Source: Candidatus Heimdallarchaeum endolithica (GTDB lineage Archaea > Asgardarchaeota > Heimdallarchaeia > Heimdallarchaeales > Heimdallarchaeaceae). From it: a stretch of 64,000 nucleotides of DNA. Position numbers and translations under genes: made by a program. The DNA lies in NCBI GenBank assembly GCA_021513715.1, contig CP084167.1, positions 3,232,001 to 3,296,000 of the forward strand. The letters are read 5' to 3'. The notes beneath the pieces are model-generated. The model was given only the letters and a program-made list of their open reading frames with translations, ran no database searches and was not told the origin of the DNA. This document shows positions 28,909 to 38,072 of the stretch, in pieces; position 1 is the stretch's first letter, and every line of letters starts with the position of its first letter.

Positions 28909-29745
28909 ATGGACATTGCAATTGTTACTGATACAAGTAGAGCATTACCTCCTAATCTTTACAAATTATATAACATCTACCCTCTAGGTTACTATTTAGA
29001 GGATTACAAAGGTAAAATTTTTGAAGAAAGAGTTAGTGCCCAAGAAGTTCAAACAGAAAAACTTCTTACAATTGCTGAAAAAGATAAAAATGCTCAGTTT
29101 TATTCTCCAACTGTAAAAGACTTTGTTGAATTATATACTTTCTTAGAAGAAGAATTTGATCATATAATTAGTTTTCACTCCTCATTGTTTACTCCAATAG
29201 TTTTTGAAAATGCAATATTAGCAAAAAAAGTGGTCTCTGATATAACTGTTGATATCTTGGATACTTATTCTTTTGAATCATCTTCTGGATTAATTCTAAA
29301 TCAGTTAGCTAAAAAAATCCAAGATGCAGAGTCAATTAATGAAATAAGAAAAGAAAGTTTTTCTCTTCATGCTAGAACACATAGTCAATTATTAACAAAA
29401 AATGATCAATTAAATAAAATAGGATTAAGGAGAGTCACATTTCTTTCAAATATAAAATCAGCTTTTGTTCCTTGGAATCTTTATCTGTTTAAGCAAAGTA
29501 ACTGGGATTTAGCTAAAAACTCTCGTTCAATGAAGTCTCTTCAATCTGAAATGGAAACAAGACTAATCTCTCTGGAAAAATCAAAAGATCTGAAATTCTG
29601 CTATTATTCATCCTCAAAGAAGTTAAACAAAGAAGTAGAGGGACTTTTAGAAAAGTTAGATAATCTATATGTTGAAAAAACACCTCAATCTTTAGTTTCT
29701 TATTTTCTAACTTCAGAATACTCAATGAATATTTCAGTTCTTTAA
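28909..29745 (+). CDS. DegV/FakB family protein, degenerate
   Basis: IAIVTDTS..LP, SPT, DILDT; lacks the GGR and HTG motifs. Confidence 0.75.
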   Translation: MDIAIVTDTSRALPPNLYKLYNIYPLGYYLEDYKGKIFEERVSAQEVQTEKLLTIAEKDKNAQFYSPTVKDFVELYTFLEEEFDHIISFHSSLFTPIVFENAILAKKVVSDITVDILDTYSFESSSGLILNQLAKKIQDAESINEIRKESFSLHARTHSQLLTKNDQLNKIGLRRVTFLSNIKSAFVPWNLYLFKQSNWDLAKNSRSMKSLQSEMETRLISLEKSKDLKFCYYSSSKKLNKEVEGLLEKLDNLYVEKTPQSLVSYFLTSEYSMNISVL

Positions 29746-30539
29746 CTATTTTCTTTAATTATCCTTATTCCATAAAAATTTGCAACATTTTCTGTTGTAA
29801 TATCTGCTAGTTTTTTTGTATCTATTCCCTTTAACATTGCTGCTTTTTTTGCTGATATAGAAATGGCAGCAGGTTCATTTTTTTCTCCTTTTTTTAAACT
29901 ATGATATGGACTATCAGTTTCAAACATTAGTTGTCTTTCAGGGATTAGTGATAGAATCTTTTGGAAGTTTTTTCTATAAACCAAACTTGTAGGGACTGTG
30001 ATGAACCAACCATTATCAACTACTTGTTTAATTTCGTTTTCTGTTCCTGTAAAACAGTGCATTAAGACGTTTTTTAGATTGTATGACTCGATAATGTCAA
30101 TTGCATCAGTTTCAGCAGCTCGAGAATGAATTACTATTGGTTTATTTTTTTCTTCAGCAAGTTCAATAAGACGCTTAAAGAATAATTTTTGTTCTTTTCT
30201 TTTTTCTTCTTCTTTCACCCAATAGTAGTCCAACCCTATTTCGCCAATAGCAACTACAAATTCTAAATTATTTAATAAAAATTCTTCAATTTTTTTGAAT
30301 TTTTCTTCTTCTACTTCTGTTGGTTGCATTCCTATAGATAAGTAAACAACTTGATTCTTTGTTAAAGATAATCCAAATTCAAAGTGATTTGGATTTAAGA
30401 TGCTATTTACAATTATTAATACGTTTTTTGATTTAGCTCGCTGAATAACTCCGTTTATATCTTTTTTAGAGAAAAAGGGAGGGTAAAGATGACAATGTGC
30501 ATCTGCAAAGATTAATTCTTGGTCTGACATATGTTTCAC
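29742..30539 (-). CDS. tatD: TatD family DNase
   Basis: DAHCH, AIGEIGLDY, IHSR, HCFTG, ETDSPY. Confidence 0.93.
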   Translation of the reverse strand: MKHMSDQELIFADAHCHLYPPFFSKKDINGVIQRAKSKNVLIIVNSILNPNHFEFGLSLTKNQVVYLSIGMQPTEVEEEKFKKIEEFLLNNLEFVVAIGEIGLDYYWVKEEEKRKEQKLFFKRLIELAEEKNKPIVIHSRAAETDAIDIIESYNLKNVLMHCFTGTENEIKQVVDNGWFITVPTSLVYRKNFQKILSLIPERQLMFETDSPYHSLKKGEKNEPAAISISAKKAAMLKGIDTKKLADITTENVANFYGIRIIKENS

Positions 30540-31516
30540 TAGTTACAAATTATATCCTTTAGTTTCTTTAGCATTTTGATTCCTCGAATTTCTTGATTAA
30601 AAGCTTCAACAGTAGTTATATCGTGATTAGGAAAAGCTTGTCTGATATATTCTAAGTTAGCTAAATGCTCTTTTCTCCTATTCATACAGTAAGGACAACT
30701 TTTATTTTCTGGGTTTATTTGATTAACAACTATTTCTCTGTTTGGAATATAATGCTCTTTTAATTCTTCAAATAGACGCTCTGACTCAAAAATAGACATA
30801 AGAGTAGGGATTCCTACGATTATAAATTGCGTTTTCTCCTCATCCATTAATGTCTCTCTTGCTACAAGTATTTTCTCTTTTAATTTTTCTAAGTTCTCTA
30901 TTGTTCTGTCTTTTTCTACATTTCCACCAAAAAAAGACTTGATCATTGCCATTGTGTTTGAAATGAATGTCTTCATTTTCAGCATTCTACCAATGAATGA
31001 GTCTAAAAATTCTGGAATGTTAAGTAGTCTCAGTGTGTGCCCAGTGGGTGCAGTATCAAGTACAATTGTATCAAATTCTTCATTATCTGCATATTCAAGG
31101 ATTTTAGCAAAAGAAAGAGCTTCATCCATTCCAGGAGGAGGAATCGATTTTATATCTTGATCTATCCCTCTCATCGCTTCCATTCCAGGAATAGACATTA
31201 GACTTGAAAATTGTTCAGCATCAAAGGAATCTCCTAGAGCTTTTGTTAATTCATCTCCTGTAGATTCAGGGTTGATTTCTAAAGCATATAGCTCTCCTTT
31301 TACACCTTTTACTTTTGTTACAGTTCCAGAAGAAAAATCTAAGTCGAAAGAGTCTGAAATACTATGTGCAGGATCAGTTGAAACTAGTAAAGTTTTCTTT
31401 CCCTCTTCAGCTAGAGCTATTGAAATTGCAGAAGCTATTGATGTTTTTCCTACTCCTCCTTTTCCTCCAACTAAGATGAACTTAAGGTCTTTTTCTAATA
31501 AATCCTTGATTGTCAT
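30539..31516 (-). CDS. Get3/TRC40 (ArsA superfamily) ATPase
   Basis: GGKGGVGKT, STDPAH, DTAPTGH, Met-rich helical insert, CPYC motif; single ATPase domain. Confidence 0.85.
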   Translation of the reverse strand: MTIKDLLEKDLKFILVGGKGGVGKTSIASAISIALAEEGKKTLLVSTDPAHSISDSFDLDFSSGTVTKVKGVKGELYALEINPESTGDELTKALGDSFDAEQFSSLMSIPGMEAMRGIDQDIKSIPPPGMDEALSFAKILEYADNEEFDTIVLDTAPTGHTLRLLNIPEFLDSFIGRMLKMKTFISNTMAMIKSFFGGNVEKDRTIENLEKLKEKILVARETLMDEEKTQFIIVGIPTLMSIFESERLFEELKEHYIPNREIVVNQINPENKSCPYCMNRRKEHLANLEYIRQAFPNHDITTVEAFNQEIRGIKMLKKLKDIICN

Positions 31517-32586: not shown

Positions 32587-33486
32587 TTGAGAGCAATGAC
32601 TGTTAAAATTCTATGTGATACTAGTGCTGATTTGAATCAACCTAATGATCAAACAATTTATGACCAATATAACATTGGCACTTTTCCAATGCATGTTATT
32701 TTTGGGACAGATGATTATAGAGAGCTAGTTGATATAAAAACCTCAGAATTTAGAAAAAAAATCTATGAAACAGAAGTTCATCCTACTACTTCTCAACCGA
32801 CACAATTTGATATTTTAACACAATTTGAGAATTATGGGAAAGAATATGATGAAATAATTTCTTTTCATATTTCTTCTAAATTAAGTGGAAGTTATTCTAA
32901 TGCTAAAATAGCGAAAAGAATGTACGAAAAATCGAACAAAGAACATGCTAAAGTCTATTTAGTTGATAGTTTACTTGCAAGTTCTGCTTTTGGAATAGTT
33001 GTAGTTAAAGCAGCAAAAATGGCTGAAAAAGGTTTGTCTGGACAAGAAATAGTTGATGAAGTAAATAAATGGAAAAAAAATAACATTGTTGTTTATTTTA
33101 CAGTAGAAAACTTGGAGTGGTTATATCGCGGAGGTAGATTAAGTAAGACTAAATATTATTTAGGTAGTATGTTAAACAAAAAACCAGTATTAACATTAGT
33201 TGATGGAGAAATAGTAAGTGCTAAAACTGTTTCAGGAATAGAAAAAACTTTTGATACAATAATTGATCTCGCTTTTAGCAGATTTCAAGGAGTAGAGCAA
33301 GAAAGATTAATGTTCAACTTAATAGAATTTGACTATAAGGATGTAGTTGAAAACGTAATTCAAAAAACCAAAAATAAGTATCCTGATGCAAAAGAAGGAA
33401 AAGTGTTTGAAATGGGTGGAACAATTGCATCTCATACTGGTCCAAAAACTTTAGGATTTATTGTCTCCAAAGATTTTGATTTTTGA
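32587..33486 (+). CDS. DegV/FakB fatty-acid-binding protein
   Basis: DTSADL, TTSQP, ISSKLSGS, RGGR, HTGP; likely start 32596. Confidence 0.92.
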   Translation: MRAMTVKILCDTSADLNQPNDQTIYDQYNIGTFPMHVIFGTDDYRELVDIKTSEFRKKIYETEVHPTTSQPTQFDILTQFENYGKEYDEIISFHISSKLSGSYSNAKIAKRMYEKSNKEHAKVYLVDSLLASSAFGIVVVKAAKMAEKGLSGQEIVDEVNKWKKNNIVVYFTVENLEWLYRGGRLSKTKYYLGSMLNKKPVLTLVDGEIVSAKTVSGIEKTFDTIIDLAFSRFQGVEQERLMFNLIEFDYKDVVENVIQKTKNKYPDAKEGKVFEMGGTIASHTGPKTLGFIVSKDFDF

Positions 33487-33550
33487 TTTTTTTTGATTTT
33501 CTTTTTTGGAAAAAGATTTATTCAACACATTTTAAGTTAGTTTGAAATAG

Positions 33551-34459
33551 ATGACAATAAAGATTTTGTGTGATACATCAGCTGATCTTGTCTTACATCC
33601 AAATAAGCCATTGTATGATTCTCTAGATGTTGGAATCCTTCCTATGAAGGTTTTCTTTGATAAAAATGATACTTTTTTAGAACAAAAAAATATTAGTAAT
33701 ATACAATTTTATGAATTAATAAAACTATCTCAAACTCAACCTAAAACCTCTCCTCCTGCAGCTGATGATATTTTTAAGGAATTTCAAAGATATGGAAAAG
33801 AATATGATGAGCTGATTTCTTTACACATTTCTAAGGATTTAAGCCATACATATATTAATGCTGTTGAAGCTAAAAAAAGATATTTAAAAACTGAATCAAA
33901 TCCTGCTAGAATAAATATTATTCATAGTGGTGTAGCCAGTCTACCTCTAGGAAAACTAGTGCTCAAAGCAGTTGAACTCAAAAATAAAGGTTATGAAGTT
34001 TCAGAGATTATAAAACAGCTATACTCTTGGAAAGAAAATAGTGTTAAATCTGCTTTTACTGTTAAGGATTTAAACTGGTTATACGAAGGAGGAAGACTAA
34101 CAAGGTCTCAGAAAACAATAGGTACAATACTAAACAAGAAACCGGTGCTCACTTTTGATCATGGAAAAATCAATGTTATAGGTTACTCAACAGGTCTGGA
34201 ACGAACATTGCGATTTATGGTTAAATATCTTATATCCAAGATGGAAGAAGAGAAAATGAATAAACTTACAATGTCTTTTATTACTGCACATAATTTTGGG
34301 TTAATAGACGACTTTTCAAGAGTTATAAAAAAAGAATTTCCAAAAATTAATTTAGGTCCTAAATTTGAGCTAGGTGCAACAATTACTAGTCATACAGGAA
34401 TGGAAACAATAGGTTTTGTAATTTCTCGTGACTTGAAATTAGATACTCTAATAAAATAA
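33551..34459 (+). CDS. DegV/FakB fatty-acid-binding protein
   Basis: DTSADL, KTSPP, EGGR, HTGM. Confidence 0.9.
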   Translation: MTIKILCDTSADLVLHPNKPLYDSLDVGILPMKVFFDKNDTFLEQKNISNIQFYELIKLSQTQPKTSPPAADDIFKEFQRYGKEYDELISLHISKDLSHTYINAVEAKKRYLKTESNPARINIIHSGVASLPLGKLVLKAVELKNKGYEVSEIIKQLYSWKENSVKSAFTVKDLNWLYEGGRLTRSQKTIGTILNKKPVLTFDHGKINVIGYSTGLERTLRFMVKYLISKMEEEKMNKLTMSFITAHNFGLIDDFSRVIKKEFPKINLGPKFELGATITSHTGMETIGFVISRDLKLDTLIK

Positions 34460-34579
34460 TCGGTTCTAACTCTATTTATTGTGAATAGAATATATTTAGA
34501 ATTAGAATTTGCAATTTTTAGGAGCTTTTTTTCTTAAAAAAGATTTAAAAAAAAGTGTTTTATTTACAATTGAAAACAA

Positions 34580-35470
34580 ATGACAGTAAAGATAATGACT
34601 GATAGTGCAGCAGATATTCCTGAATATTTACTAAAGGAGAATGATATATCTACAGTTCCTACAGTAATCAGATTTGGTGATGACGTTTACTATGAAAATA
34701 AAGATATAACATTGGAACGATACTATGAACTCTTTCACACTCATCCAGTTCCTCCTCAAACAGCTAATCCTACTTTAGCTGATGATTTTGAGTTATACAA
34801 AAAACTAGGCGAAGAAGCTGATGAAGTAATAAATATAGTTATTTCTAGTGGTATCTCTGGTTCGTTTAACACTTCTAATGCTGCTTTGAAAATGTATGAA
34901 AAGAGAGTAAAGGATAGTGCAAAAGTATATGTTTTTGATTCTCATTTTGCTACAATGGGTATAGGTGTCCAAGCTCTAAAGGCTGCAGAGATGGCTAAAG
35001 AGGGGTATAATGCAACAGAAATACTTGCAATGTTAGAAGAGTATAGAGAAAAACTAGCTGTTGCTTTTACTGTAGATAATTTAGAGTATCTACACAGAGG
35101 AGGTAGATTGTCTAAATCTAAATTCTGGATAGCAAAATTAGCTGACTTACATCCTGTGATCACTTTTATAGATGGAAAAATGGAAGTAGAAAAAACATCA
35201 AGAGGATACGATAATGCAATGGAAAAAGCTTTTGATCTATCTTGGGAGAAAATAAACAAAGCTAAAAAATTCAATGCTTATATTTGCTACGGAGAAAATA
35301 AAGATCATGCTCTCTATATGAGAGATTATATTCAAGATAAAATAGATGCTGAATATAATATTGAAATATATCAAGTAGGTGCAACAATAATTACACACAC
35401 AGGCCCAGAAGTAAGTGGGATATTGCTTGATCCTTACAATGAAAAGCTCTATAAAGCATCTAATAAATAG
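34580..35470 (+). CDS. DegV/FakB fatty-acid-binding protein
   Basis: TDSAADI, QTANP, ISSGISGS, LHRGGR, HTGP. Confidence 0.92.
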   Translation: MTVKIMTDSAADIPEYLLKENDISTVPTVIRFGDDVYYENKDITLERYYELFHTHPVPPQTANPTLADDFELYKKLGEEADEVINIVISSGISGSFNTSNAALKMYEKRVKDSAKVYVFDSHFATMGIGVQALKAAEMAKEGYNATEILAMLEEYREKLAVAFTVDNLEYLHRGGRLSKSKFWIAKLADLHPVITFIDGKMEVEKTSRGYDNAMEKAFDLSWEKINKAKKFNAYICYGENKDHALYMRDYIQDKIDAEYNIEIYQVGATIITHTGPEVSGILLDPYNEKLYKASNK

Positions 35471-35476
35471 GATTGT

Positions 35477-36205
35477 ATGTTATCCTTTGATGCTTTTTTC
35501 TTTGACTTAGATGGAACATTAATAGATTTCAATCCTAATGAATTTGTGAAAATCTATTTAGGAGCTGCTGCAAGGTATTTCAAGGATTTGATACCAGATA
35601 GTGATTATTTTGTTAAATCAATATTAGATTCAACAAAAGTAATGGAAATGGCAGATACTCCAAAAAAATTAGCGTTATATGATTTCTTTGATGATTTTTG
35701 TCAAAAATTCAATCTTGATTGTTCTACTATAATCCAGAGATTTAGGAATTTTTATAATACTGACTTTAATGTAGTAGAAAAAATTATTCACCCCATCCCA
35801 CATGCTGAAAAAGTTCTTTTATTTATTAGAGACAATTATCCAACAAGTAAAATTGTTTTATCTACTAATCCAGTTTTTCCAGAGGTGGCTATAGTTAAAA
35901 GATTAAACTGGGGGGGATTATCAGAAAATCTATTTGATTATATTACCAACGCTGAGAATAGTTATTATTGTAAAGGTTCTCTAAATTATTGGATAGAACT
36001 AGCAAAAAAACTTAATGTAAAACCTGAAAAAACATTAGTTATAGGGAATGATGGTGCGCGCGATATGATTGCTAAAAAGGCAGGTTTCAAAACTTACTTC
36101 TTAATACAAACAGCTGAAAATGAGCATTCATTGGAAAAGTACCCTCCAGACTATAAAGGGAGTTTAGCATCACTATTGGATTTATTAAACAAAAAGAAAG
36201 ACTAA
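35477..36205 (+). CDS. HAD-superfamily hydrolase
   Basis: FDLDGTL, STNP, IGND...D. Confidence 0.9.
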   Translation: MLSFDAFFFDLDGTLIDFNPNEFVKIYLGAAARYFKDLIPDSDYFVKSILDSTKVMEMADTPKKLALYDFFDDFCQKFNLDCSTIIQRFRNFYNTDFNVVEKIIHPIPHAEKVLLFIRDNYPTSKIVLSTNPVFPEVAIVKRLNWGGLSENLFDYITNAENSYYCKGSLNYWIELAKKLNVKPEKTLVIGNDGARDMIAKKAGFKTYFLIQTAENEHSLEKYPPDYKGSLASLLDLLNKKKD

Positions 36206-36246: not shown

Positions 36247-36327
36247 ATTTCATTCGCCTATGATGATGCAACGGTCTGCGATTCGAGAGAAAATGAACGC
36301 TGATGGGCGGGCTGAGGCGAATTAAAT
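36247..36327 (+). ncRNA. box C/D guide sRNA; D guide predicted to direct SSU rRNA Cm1402
   Basis: Box C ATGATGA at 36260-36266, box D CTGA at 36312-36315, 12-bp terminal stem with one mismatch (ATTTCATTCGCC / GGCGAATTAAAT); GC-rich island in an AT-rich spacer. Confidence 0.85.
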
Positions 36328-36362
36328 ATTTTATTTAATTAAAAAAAAAGAAAGATTTTTTC

Positions 36363-38072
36363 TTATTCTTTCACTGTTTCGATAATTTCTTTATATTTGT
36401 AAAAAGCTAGTCTCTTGTGTCCATTTTCTGCTACTAATCCATTTAAATTAGCAGTGATGGTTCTGTCCATTAGAGGGTCACATATAAAACCAGTTATCTT
36501 CTGGTTATTTACTATTATTTCTAGTTGTCTAGCTAATGTTCCCGCTTGAATTCTTTCTCCATACATCATAGGTGAAAAACTAGTTGAACTAATCCACAAA
36601 GTCTTATTGGCTTGTTCTGTCACATTTAGGTATTCATTAAAATTAAGGTCTCTGTCTTGATAAACGTAAATATTAATTATTGCTAAATCAATTGTTGTAG
36701 AGTTCCATAAACCATCAAATAATCCATTGTCAATATCGTCTAATGTTACAGAAACTGCAACTTTTGTTTTATTAGAAAGAGAATGAATTAAGTTCGCTGT
36801 ATTATTTATTGTAAGTGTCCAATCATTGTTAGTTATGCTTTCTTCAGGGTCCATGAAATAAGTTTGAAAAACAATTGGCTGGGGATAGATTACAAGATAA
36901 TCTGGTTCATAATTTTCAACAATCATTTGAGCCTCCATTTCTATTGTTCTACTGTAGTTTTCAAATGACTCGTAGGGATAGCTCCATGAAGCATTTCCAT
37001 AGGCAAAAAGAGCAATTTTTAATCCTTCTGATTTAAGTACGTTAAGCATATTACCAAAAGATGTTTGATTTGCTAGAATAATATCTGTTAGTACATCAAT
37101 AGATACTGTATCTACTCCTAGTTCTTTTATAAGATCAAGTTCAAGAGAAAAAATTTCTTCATAGTTTGAAGGTAAAAAGGTTTGAAAGCTTCCTGTTCTG
37201 AGCGAAACAGCAAAATTGAAGTCATCTCTTTGTGAATATATTGGTTGATAGTTCCTTGAAGTATATTGACTTAAAGATGATAATACTCCCACTCCAATCA
37301 TACTAAATATTATTAAAAATAAGACAATGAAAACAAAGATACCTTTTACTCCATTATTAAGGAAAGTACCTATTCCTCTTTTTTGTTTTTTCTCTTCTAC
37401 TTTTTCTATTCTTTCAAGAAAAACAGTGCTTTTCTTTTTTGAAGCTTTTTCTCCTTTCGCTTTCTTTTCTTTTATTTCTGTTTTAGAAACTTTTTTCTCT
37501 TCTTCTTCTTCTGAATTTTTTATTTTTCCTTTTTCAAATAAATCAATAGGGATTGCTATTGGAATTAATACAAATAGTGGATACCAATAAGCTGTTCCTC
37601 CAGTGAAAAATAGAGCTTCAAGTAGTCCATATGAGATGGAAGGTATTGTTATAATCCAATTTAGAAAACGTGGAAGGTTGAAAGCAGTGTAAGAAGCGAT
37701 CACATTTAGTAATATTAGAGTAGAATACAAAGCCATAAAACTGAAAATTATTCCCCCCATACGTTTTAGAAAATCTGTTTCACTCTTAAAAATGTAGACC
37801 GTAGCAATAATGTTGTTTATTGATAGAAAAAGAAAACCAAAAAAGCCTAGAAAACCTGTAGAAGGTAAGTATAATCTTATGAACCATATGAAAGAAGATA
37901 ACGTTCCGATTGAAATTAGTGCAGATGAAACTAAAGACCAAATAAACTGTTTATCTCTTTTCTTTCTTGAAAAACCCTTGTAAAGTGTTTTTACCACTAT
38001 TATCATATTAAAAATAAATGCGAGAAATATTAGTACTATCGCACCATTTGTCCCAAGTAAAGCTGCCATCAA
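36363..38072 (-). CDS. membrane protein with extracellular glycoside-hydrolase-like TIM barrel
   Basis: About 5-6 N-terminal TMs, charged loop, TM, then LDLIKELGVDTV..GLKI..NGLV..G.KR.AF. Confidence 0.6.
   Translation of the reverse strand: MMAALLGTNGAIVLIFLAFIFNMIIVVKTLYKGFSRKKRDKQFIWSLVSSALISIGTLSSFIWFIRLYLPSTGFLGFFGFLFLSINNIIATVYIFKSETDFLKRMGGIIFSFMALYSTLILLNVIASYTAFNLPRFLNWIITIPSISYGLLEALFFTGGTAYWYPLFVLIPIAIPIDLFEKGKIKNSEEEEEKKVSKTEIKEKKAKGEKASKKKSTVFLERIEKVEEKKQKRGIGTFLNNGVKGIFVFIVLFLIIFSMIGVGVLSSLSQYTSRNYQPIYSQRDDFNFAVSLRTGSFQTFLPSNYEEIFSLELDLIKELGVDTVSIDVLTDIILANQTSFGNMLNVLKSEGLKIALFAYGNASWSYPYESFENYSRTIEMEAQMIVENYEPDYLVIYPQPIVFQTYFMDPEESITNNDWTLTINNTANLIHSLSNKTKVAVSVTLDDIDNGLFDGLWNSTTIDLAIINIYVYQDRDLNFNEYLNVTEQANKTLWISSTSFSPMMYGERIQAGTLARQLEIIVNNQKITGFICDPLMDRTITANLNGLVAENGHKRLAFYKYKEIIETVKE

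What the first reader, a model, noticed from the sequence alone, without database searches (positions are those of the whole stretch)
36247..36327. Unannotated box C/D sRNA predicted to guide SSU rRNA Cm1402
Seen: perfect C and D boxes closed by a 12-bp terminal stem. The D guide UGAUGGGCGG pairs over 10 nt (with G-U wobble) with the universal decoding-site sequence CCGCCCGUC(A/G), E. coli 1399-1408. The fifth nucleotide upstream of box D (G36307) lands exactly on C1402. Known: this ribose is methylated by the protein RsmI in bacteria and by snoRNA guides in eukaryotes (yeast snR70, human SNORD43). The degenerate D'/C' boxes and long terminal stem look more snoRNA-like than typical compact archaeal sRNAs. 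The target of the upstream guide (TGCAACGGTCTGCGAT) is unidentified.
Basis: partly seen in the sequence, partly recalled or inferred. Interest (0 to 1): 0.75.

Follow-up and report, generated by a model that had tools for sequence, protein, structure and literature searches.

The report
Asgard dual-guide rRNA methylation sRNA
This is a real, unannotated small guide RNA of an Asgard archaeon that most likely tells the methylating enzyme where to mark the ribosome at its decoding site (16S C1402) and next to its catalytic centre (23S C2591); it is an ordinary kind of archaeal RNA, and other archaea have guides for C1402 and for the neighbouring 23S position.

Summary
Confirmed. Window 36252-36322 is a box C/D sRNA gene of a Heimdallarchaeum (sister of Ca. 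H. aukensis). It is conserved in 26 of 31 genomes of the family, with a covarying stem and near-invariant guides. The D guide pairs with the organism's own 16S 1399-1408 (8 Watson-Crick, 2 G-U), and G36307 faces C1402. The same guide occurs across Asgard lineages and follows the invariant 16S, not the variable 23S look-alike. Fibrillarin, Nop5 and L7Ae are present; RsmI was not found. The 'unidentified' guide is 36267-36277 and pairs with 23S 2587-2597: C2591 here, C2590 (yeast Cm2959/snR73) in 8 of 26 homologues. Not new in kind: expressed Methanopyrus sR114 and Sulfolobus sR122 carry the same guide, and Pyrococcus has Cm1376 (=1402). One open point: in this family the D guide also fits the 23S A-loop (C2558), and two relatives have shifted to U2555. 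No expression or methylation data exist. The scan noted this family before in other Asgard genomes.

The parts
36252..36322 (+). box C/D sRNA gene, conserved core (transcript ends not mapped; may begin near 36247)
36252..36258 (+). 5' arm of the 7-bp terminal stem
   Evidence: pairs 36316-36322; 86% of cells paired and 3 pairs with changes on both sides in 13 homologues
36247..36250 (+). A-U extension of the terminal stem beyond a C-U mismatch (pairs 36324-36327)
   Evidence: not intact in G001
36260..36266 (+). box C (perfect); 36259-36261 is the K-turn bulge
36267..36277 (+). D' guide, pairs own 23S 2587-2597 (E. coli numbering): 9 Watson-Crick + 2 G-U; D'-5 = G36273 faces C2591
36278..36281 (+). 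box D' (degenerate, GCGA)
   Evidence: position fixed by the hairpin that follows and by G36278-C36298 pairing; same D' in Pyrobaculum sR30
36282..36291 (+). internal 3-bp stem with GNRA tetraloop closing the C'/D' K-turn
   Evidence: compensatory change in G014, longer stem in G011; replaced by a 4-6 nt K-loop in 7 homologues
36293..36299 (+). box C' (degenerate, AUGAACG)
36300..36311 (+). D guide; 36301-36310 pairs own 16S 1399-1408, D-5 = G36307 faces C1402; weaker second fit to 23S 2554-2564 with G36307 facing C2558
36312..36315 (+). box D (perfect)
36316..36322 (+). 3' arm of the terminal stem, followed by T-rich runs (36329-36361) that could end transcription
   Evidence: termination is inferred
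35477..36205 (+). upstream neighbour, HAD-like hydrolase; directly upstream only in this genus
36363..38072 (-). downstream convergent neighbour, 569-aa protein without Pfam match; syntenic in 23 family genomes

Best explanation
An archaeal-type double-guide box C/D sRNA. L7Ae binds the terminal C/D K-turn and the internal C'/D' K-turn, Nop5 and fibrillarin assemble on them, and each guide pairs with nascent rRNA so that fibrillarin methylates the ribose opposite the fifth nucleotide before the box. The D guide marks 16S C1402 in helix 44 at the P site, doing the job that RsmI does in bacteria. The D' guide marks 23S C2591 at the base of helix 93 (C2590 in some relatives). Shown here: sequence anatomy, complementarity to the organism's own rRNAs, conservation, presence of the three proteins, no RsmI found. 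Inferred from established C/D rules: transcription, RNP assembly, methylation and the exact nucleotides.
For: Best target of each guide among own 16S and 23S; tRNAs fit worse; D-guide duplex matched by 5 of 300 shuffled guides. Homologues in 26 of 31 family genomes, guide cores near-invariant while boxes, loop and stem vary, stem covariation. The D' guide matches the lineage's U2594 variant of 23S in all 20 family 23S genes read, and its variable 5' bases mostly keep pairing. The D guide recurs before a CUGA-type box in Asgard families f5, f7, f10, f11, f12, f13, f20 and f31 (6 hits in the backward control over 400 genomes). Where 23S helix 92 was read, these variants fit it far worse (-2 to -15 kcal/mol) than the invariant 16S (-14 to -22), and four genomes have the perfect 16S antisense. 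Fibrillarin, Nop5 and L7Ae present; RsmI not found in 61 genomes, RsmH not in G000. Cm at this site is measured in P. abyssi (Cm1376, PMC7005279) and N. equitans (PMC5389701). The same guide core is in expressed Methanopyrus sR114 and Sulfolobus sR122 (PMC4644070 file 1).
Against: No transcript or methylation data for this organism. The 16S duplex has two G-U pairs and misses the strict 9 Watson-Crick rule; Dennis et al. made no C1402 call for sR114 or sR122. The D' duplex alone is matched by 29 of 300 shuffles, so it rests on conservation. Relatives with an A opposite C1402 (f20 genus g43; Pyrobaculum sR25, PMC6009581) show that this guide can persist without methylating. The two targets lie on different rRNAs whose genes are about 110 kb apart, whereas most archaeal double guides hit two sites within 100 nt of one RNA.
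Confidence: 0.7

Rival explanations
1. Three-site guide: in this family the D guide serves both 16S C1402 and 23S C2558 in the A-loop helix, 33 nt from the D' target, so the RNA is also a classical same-rRNA double guide on domain V. This adds to the best explanation rather than replacing it.
For: Own 23S 2554-2564 pairs over 11 nt with the -5 base on C2558. At the four positions where the two targets differ, the family guide has the only base that pairs with both (G at -2 and -10, U at -8 and -11) in 22-24 of 24 genomes. U at -11 is nearly specific to this family; other Asgard lineages mostly have C, which fits 16S G1408 only. G015 and G021 have a 3-nt insertion giving a 13-bp duplex with the A-loop and U2555 at -5. 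C2558 is a predicted target in Methanopyrus (sR64, alignment position C2832).
Against: 3.8 kcal/mol weaker than the 16S duplex. U at -8 also occurs in Methanopyrus, Sulfolobus and family f5, so it is not a family adaptation. G005, an orthologue with the same D' guide, has lost the A-loop fit (-8.0) and kept 16S (-16.4). Six family 23S genes have A2555, which breaks the -2 pair without any change in the guide in four of them.
Confidence: 0.22
2. The D guide has switched wholly to 23S C2558 and the 16S match is a left-over of the ancestral function.
For: Proximity of C2558 and C2591; more Watson-Crick pairs on 23S than on 16S in G011 and G018, which have A at -2.
Against: G at -10 is kept in all 24 genomes and G at -2 in 22 of 24, although A would give better 23S pairing and the genomes are about 30% G+C; the 16S duplex is the stronger one in every standard-register genome with both read; no RsmI was found to take over C1402.
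Confidence: 0.08
3. The RNA pairs with helix 44 as a folding chaperone, and methylation of C1402 is partial or absent.
For: Only 4 of about 63 Asgard guides found are perfect antisense; one genus and Pyrobaculum sR25 keep a mismatch at the target itself. A second sRNA of this genome (G000:1572784, minus) covers the overlapping 1406-1414 stretch.
Against: In this family the -5 pair is Watson-Crick G-C in all 24 standard-register genomes, and Cm1402 is measured in two archaea.
Confidence: 0.12
4. Not a functional RNA: chance motif or antisense rRNA fragment.
For: Short guides match 5.6 kb of rRNA by chance fairly often; no Rfam family reaches its cut-off.
Against: Family-wide conservation with covariation, synteny, a conserved upstream BRE-TATA in most homologues, complete K-turn geometry, 0.03 expected by chance.
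Confidence: 0.02

Closest known systems
Methanopyrus kandleri sR114 and Sulfolobus acidocaldarius sR122 (Dennis et al. 2015, PMC4644070, additional file 1)
   Same: Expressed archaeal C/D sRNAs with the same guide core, including the U opposite G1405, in the same register to the box; the sR114 guide and box equal those of homologues G002 and G006.
   Different: There the guide stands before box D', here before box D; their second guides are unrelated; the authors listed no target for that guide.
Pyrococcus sR12 of Gaspin et al. 2000, as discussed by Hoeppner and Poole 2012 (PMC3511168)
   Same: Reported archaeal guide for the yeast snR70 site; P. abyssi Cm1376 (= E. coli 1402) is measured (PMC7005279).
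   Different: Sequence not seen here: the Rfam model named sR12 (RF01147) has no C1402 guide in its consensus and does not pick this locus.
Pyrobaculum sR25 / Thermoproteus tenax sR135 (PMC6009581, PMC4644070)
   Same: D-box guide over the same 16S stretch in the same register.
   Different: A opposite C1402, predicted not to methylate; second guide on 16S nearby.
Pyrobaculum calidifontis sR30 and Ignicoccus sR27, sR124 (PMC4644070)
   Same: Guides for 23S alignment position C2864 (= E. coli 2590); sR30 has the same D' box and a C' one base different.
   Different: The sR30 guide is one base longer, so it points at C2590, not C2591; its D guide hits C2606.
Eukaryotic SNORD43/U43/snR70 (RF00221, RF01238, clan CL00059)
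   Same: Same site (yeast Cm1639, human Cm1703) and same register; the consensus guide equals the perfect Asgard variants.
   Different: Guide before D' rather than D, perfect rather than wobbled, single guide; the model does not list this locus at E up to 10 and gives 16.4 bits against a cut-off of 45 for the best Asgard relative.
Eukaryotic SNORD35/U35/snR73 (RF00211, RF01207)
   Same: Target yeast Cm2959 / human Cm4536 = E. coli 2590 (38 nt after Um2921/U2552; table in PMC11542601; equal spacing in yeast is from memory), the site indicated in 8 of 26 family homologues.
   Different: In this genome the five-nucleotide rule gives the next base, C2591; no model match; a separate RNA from the C1402 guide in eukaryotes.

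Membership tests
Archaeal box C/D sRNA (class) | Boxes C and D forming a terminal K-turn closed by a stem | tested here: met
Archaeal box C/D sRNA (class) | Internal C'/D' motif with tandem G-A pairs | tested here: met
   GA kept in D' and C' of all 26 homologues; K-turn or K-loop form
Archaeal box C/D sRNA (class) | 50-70 nt length with two 10-12 nt guides (PMC7994747) | tested here: met
   56-nt C-to-D span, guides 11 and 12 nt
Archaeal box C/D sRNA (class) | Guide complementary to a host RNA with a Watson-Crick pair at position -5 | tested here: met
   G-C at 16S C1402 and at 23S C2591
Archaeal box C/D sRNA (class) | At least 9 consecutive Watson-Crick pairs (strict rule of Dennis et al.) | tested here: inconclusive
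   D' guide has 9; D guide has 6, a G-U, 2 more and a G-U
Archaeal box C/D sRNA (class) | Host encodes L7Ae, Nop5 and fibrillarin | tested here: met
Archaeal box C/D sRNA (class) | Expressed, bound by L7Ae, methylates its target | not testable with these tools
   needs RNA and protein assays
Rfam sR12 (RF01147) | Score above gathering cut-off and shared guides | tested here: not met
   locus not picked; consensus guides differ
SNORD43/snR70 (CL00059) | Guide for the C1402-equivalent in the same register | tested here: met
SNORD43/snR70 (CL00059) | Guide in front of box D' | tested here: not met
   guide is in front of box D here
SNORD43/snR70 (CL00059) | Model score above cut-off | tested here: not met
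SNORD35/snR73 (CL00056) | Targets the 2590-equivalent cytidine | tested here: inconclusive
   C2591 by rule here and in 18 of 26; C2590 in 8 of 26
SNORD35/snR73 (CL00056) | Model score above cut-off | tested here: not met
   not listed

The most novel reading that the evidence does not exclude
In Heimdallarchaeaceae one 12-nt guide is tuned by wobble pairs to serve two ribosomal subunits, 16S C1402 (decoding site) and 23S C2558 (A-loop helix), beside a second guide on 23S C2590/C2591. The family would then catch an ancient decoding-site guide in the act of moving to the peptidyl-transferase centre, a move apparently completed in G015 and G021 (U2555).
Probability: 0.22. Interest if true: 0.55.

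Novelty: new member of a known kind. Interest (0 to 1): 0.3.

Why it matters
Cm1402 is one of very few ribose methylations shared by all three domains, and its loss in yeast raises frameshifting and read-through (PMC2794176). Whether the archaeal and eukaryotic guides for it share ancestry or converged was left open by Hoeppner and Poole (PMC3511168). I found no paper on Asgard C/D guides in the library searched. This RNA fills that gap with a lineage-wide set, but it does not settle ancestry: ten target-dictated bases carry no independent signal, and the guide sits at D here and at D' in eukaryotes. It gives cheap, exact predictions (C1402, C2591 against C2590, C2558) for any Asgard culture or enrichment, and a natural series for asking how guides shift register and change target.

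Tried and rejected
Rfam at gathering thresholds: nothing in the window; only sub-threshold C/D hits of unrelated guides. 23S C2510 as the D-guide target: rejected, own 23S differs there. tRNA targets: weaker, interrupted duplexes. Guide variation as covariation with 23S helix 92: rejected across lineages. Guide variation as covariation with 16S: rejected, 16S 1399-1408 was identical in all 30 loci read plus G333 and G384; 16S was not read for f7, f10-f13 and f20, where invariance is assumed. Small protein: no frame spans the RNA. Sequencing runs: no RNA holder listed; this is no evidence either way. The sigma-70 promoter scan does not apply to archaea. rRNA models found no 16S in five distant genomes; one search failed. 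Naming distant families by protein look-up worked only in part: f10 Baldrarchaeia, f13 Freyarchaeota, f5 unnamed Heimdallarchaeota; that f5 or f7 is Hodarchaeales is a guess. The phylum pattern allowed only transitions at guide positions -5 to -8, so it cannot show that other changes do not occur, and its blanks (most of f20 and f31, all of f6) do not show absence.

Full report
Origin. The window is G000:3232001-3296000 of a single 3.33-Mb contig. Its only congener, G001, has the contig length of CP084166.1, Ca. Heimdallarchaeum aukensis PM71, and the other named hits of the RNA are Heimdallarchaeota MAGs. The organism is therefore a Heimdallarchaeum; that it is Ca. H. endolithica is from memory and was not shown.

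Observation. Box C (36260-36266) and box D (36312-36315) are perfect, and D-5 is G36307. They form a textbook K-turn: stem closed by C36258-G36316, a three-base bulge, two sheared G-A pairs, U-U and G-C. The terminal stem is 7 bp plus a 4-bp A-U extension after a mismatch, not an unbroken 12 bp, and the extension is not intact in the sister species. The unit lies in a 157-nt gap between a HAD hydrolase and a convergent 569-aa gene, is 52% G+C against 24% and 8% in its flanks, and has no spanning reading frame. It is the only perfect C + D + strong-stem unit in the non-coding part of the genome, with 0.03 expected. No Rfam family reaches its cut-off.

Internal anatomy. D' is GCGA (36278-36281), followed by a 3-bp hairpin with a GNRA loop, a three-base bulge and C' (36293-36299), so the internal motif is a second K-turn. 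Homologues confirm it: a compensatory change in G014, a 5-bp stem in G011, and a 4-6 nt K-loop with near-canonical boxes in seven others. The guides are 11 nt (36267-36277) and 12 nt (36300-36311).

Conservation. BLAST and a sequence model found the RNA in 26 of 31 genomes of the family. Guide cores are near-invariant while boxes, loop and stem vary; 86% of stem cells pair, with changes on both sides in three of seven pairs, above all slid controls (the sequences are related, so this is not a probability). The downstream gene is syntenic in 23 genomes. The upstream gene differs in this genus, and most homologues have a clear BRE-TATA about 43 nt before box C, which is not clear in G000 and G001. 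Independent transcription is inferred for the family; read-through from the HAD gene is possible here.

Targets. Against the organism's own rRNAs the best D-guide site is 16S 1399-1408 (-20.1 kcal/mol; 8 Watson-Crick, 2 G-U; G36307 opposite C1402), and the best D'-guide site is 23S 2587-2597 (-16.0; 9 Watson-Crick, 2 G-U; G36273 opposite C2591). Shuffled guides do as well in 5 and 29 of 300 trials, so the D' call rests on conservation: the guide matches the lineage's U2594 variant, present in all 20 family 23S genes read. The D' register is split: 18 homologues point at C2591 and 8 at C2590, the yeast Cm2959/snR73 and human Cm4536/U35 site. Degenerate C'/D' motifs can shift the methylated base in yeast (PMC5389607), but the shift described there lengthens box D', which would move the target away from C2590; C2591 is my best call for this genome.

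The A-loop rival. The D guide also pairs with 23S 2554-2564, -5 on C2558, at -16.3 kcal/mol and 33 nt from the D' target, the usual layout of archaeal double guides. I tested which target the guide follows. A pattern search of 400 Asgard genomes found the same guide before a D box, with a different D' guide, in eight further families, against 6 hits of the backward control. The variants differ from each other at positions -5 to -8 and -11; their consensus, and four genomes outright, are the perfect antisense of 16S 1399-1408. The 23S helix read from the same genomes does not follow them: fits fall to -2 to -8 kcal/mol in G005, G049, G087, G115 and G144-G148 while 16S stays at -14 to -17. So 16S is the family-wide target. 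Within Heimdallarchaeaceae a second use on the A-loop is not excluded: the guide has the base that pairs with both targets at all four discriminating positions, and G015 and G021 carry a 3-nt insertion that gives a 13-bp A-loop duplex aimed at U2555. Against it, the U at -8 is widespread outside the family and G005 has lost the fit. I put it at about 0.2.

Machinery. Fibrillarin and Nop5 are adjacent at about G000:1.424-1.426 Mb and L7Ae-family genes are present. RsmI was not found in G000 or 60 relatives, RsmH not in G000, so a guide RNA is the expected route to Cm1402.

Comparison with what is known. Cm at this position is measured in P. abyssi (Cm1376, PMC7005279) and N. equitans (PMC5389701, guide not found). 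Hoeppner and Poole cite archaeal sR12 as the counterpart of snR70/SNORD43 and leave homology open (PMC3511168); the Rfam model named sR12 has no such guide. Expressed sRNAs with this guide core are Methanopyrus sR114 and Sulfolobus sR122 (lead from earlier notes of this scan, checked here). Pyrobaculum sR25 covers the site with a mismatch at the target, as one Asgard genus does. 23S C2590 is a predicted target of Pyrobaculum sR30, which shares the D' box, and of Ignicoccus sRNAs. The SNORD43 consensus has the perfect guide in the same register but before D'. The RNA works like snR70/SNORD43 with a near-snR73 second guide, and is a member of the archaeal C/D sRNA class, but of no Rfam family. 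Size, symmetry and double guide are archaeal; the 'snoRNA-like' label is not supported.

Verdict. Real, well supported, new member of a known kind. No expression or modification data could be obtained. The scan has noted the C1402 guide, and one homologue with both targets, in other Asgard genomes. Interest 0.3.

Noticed in passing
G000:C1:2868239-2868288 (minus; outside the window); L247-L250: Compact C/D sRNA whose D guide points at 23S A2577 (yeast Am2946/snR71, human U29 site); conserved in G001, G002, G006; its equally conserved D' guide has no convincing rRNA or tRNA target.
   Followed up: partly
G000:C1:1572737-1572784 (minus; outside the window); L256, L257: C/D sRNA with guides on both strands of 16S helix 44: D' points at U1409 and D, by the five-nucleotide rule, at A1493, a decoding adenosine; the exact D guide was found only in G000 and G001. 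Its D' site overlaps that of the RNA studied.
   Followed up: partly
G000:C1:2672672 (minus), 2956878 (plus), 2147880 (plus), about 200779-200830 (plus): Further C/D sRNAs: 23S A1913 (yeast Am2256/snR63) with G1940; 16S U531 (yeast Um578/snR77, mapping from memory); tRNA-Leu and tRNA-Met fits; and one near 200.8 kb. About seven C/D sRNAs were seen in all, several aimed at sites methylated in eukaryotes. No enrichment test was run.
   Followed up: partly
L089 and L090 (G015, G021), RNA at about 1501-1580: Homologues with a 3-nt insertion in the D guide; by rule they now aim at 23S U2555 in the A-loop with a 13-bp duplex and place a mismatch at -5 on 16S.
   Followed up: yes
L231-L233, L244 (G144-G148): Asgard genus whose guide has A opposite C1402, the same mismatch as Pyrobaculum sR25.
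   Followed up: partly
all homologues: Only 4 of about 63 Asgard guides found are perfect antisense; most carry one or two wobble or A-C pairs, fixed per lineage, while the eukaryotic consensus is perfect. Unexplained; a weaker duplex may ease release.
   Followed up: partly
Rfam RF01147: The model named sR12 has no guide for C1402, although sR12 is cited as the snR70 counterpart; possibly a clash of sRNA numbering between studies.
   Followed up: partly
L002 (G000:2131431-2135566) and L001 (G000:2245500-2246977): The 23S match spans 4136 nt against a 2987-position model, so it holds about 1.1 kb of insertions or introns; 16S and 23S genes are unlinked, about 110 kb apart. Several relatives (G008, G010, G012, G022 and others) break off the 23S consensus after A2600, which suggests an intron there.
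   Followed up: no
window 32587-35470 (+): Three similar genes of about 300 aa in tandem before the HAD hydrolase; the third was confirmed as DegV family.
   Followed up: partly
window 36363-38072 (-): 569-aa protein with hydrophobic N-terminal part and no Pfam match, syntenic with the RNA in 23 family genomes.
   Followed up: no
window 30539-31516 (-) and 29742-30539 (-): By eye an ArsA/GET3-type ATPase overlapping by one base a TatD-type gene; not tested.
   Followed up: no
G000:C1:133512, 369808, 2639610, 3323375: A non-coding stretch repeated identically four times, probably part of a mobile element.
   Followed up: no
G061:C310, G077:C798, G176:C68, G235:C263: 23S matches that look bacterial, probably contamination of these bins; left out of the comparison.
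   Followed up: no
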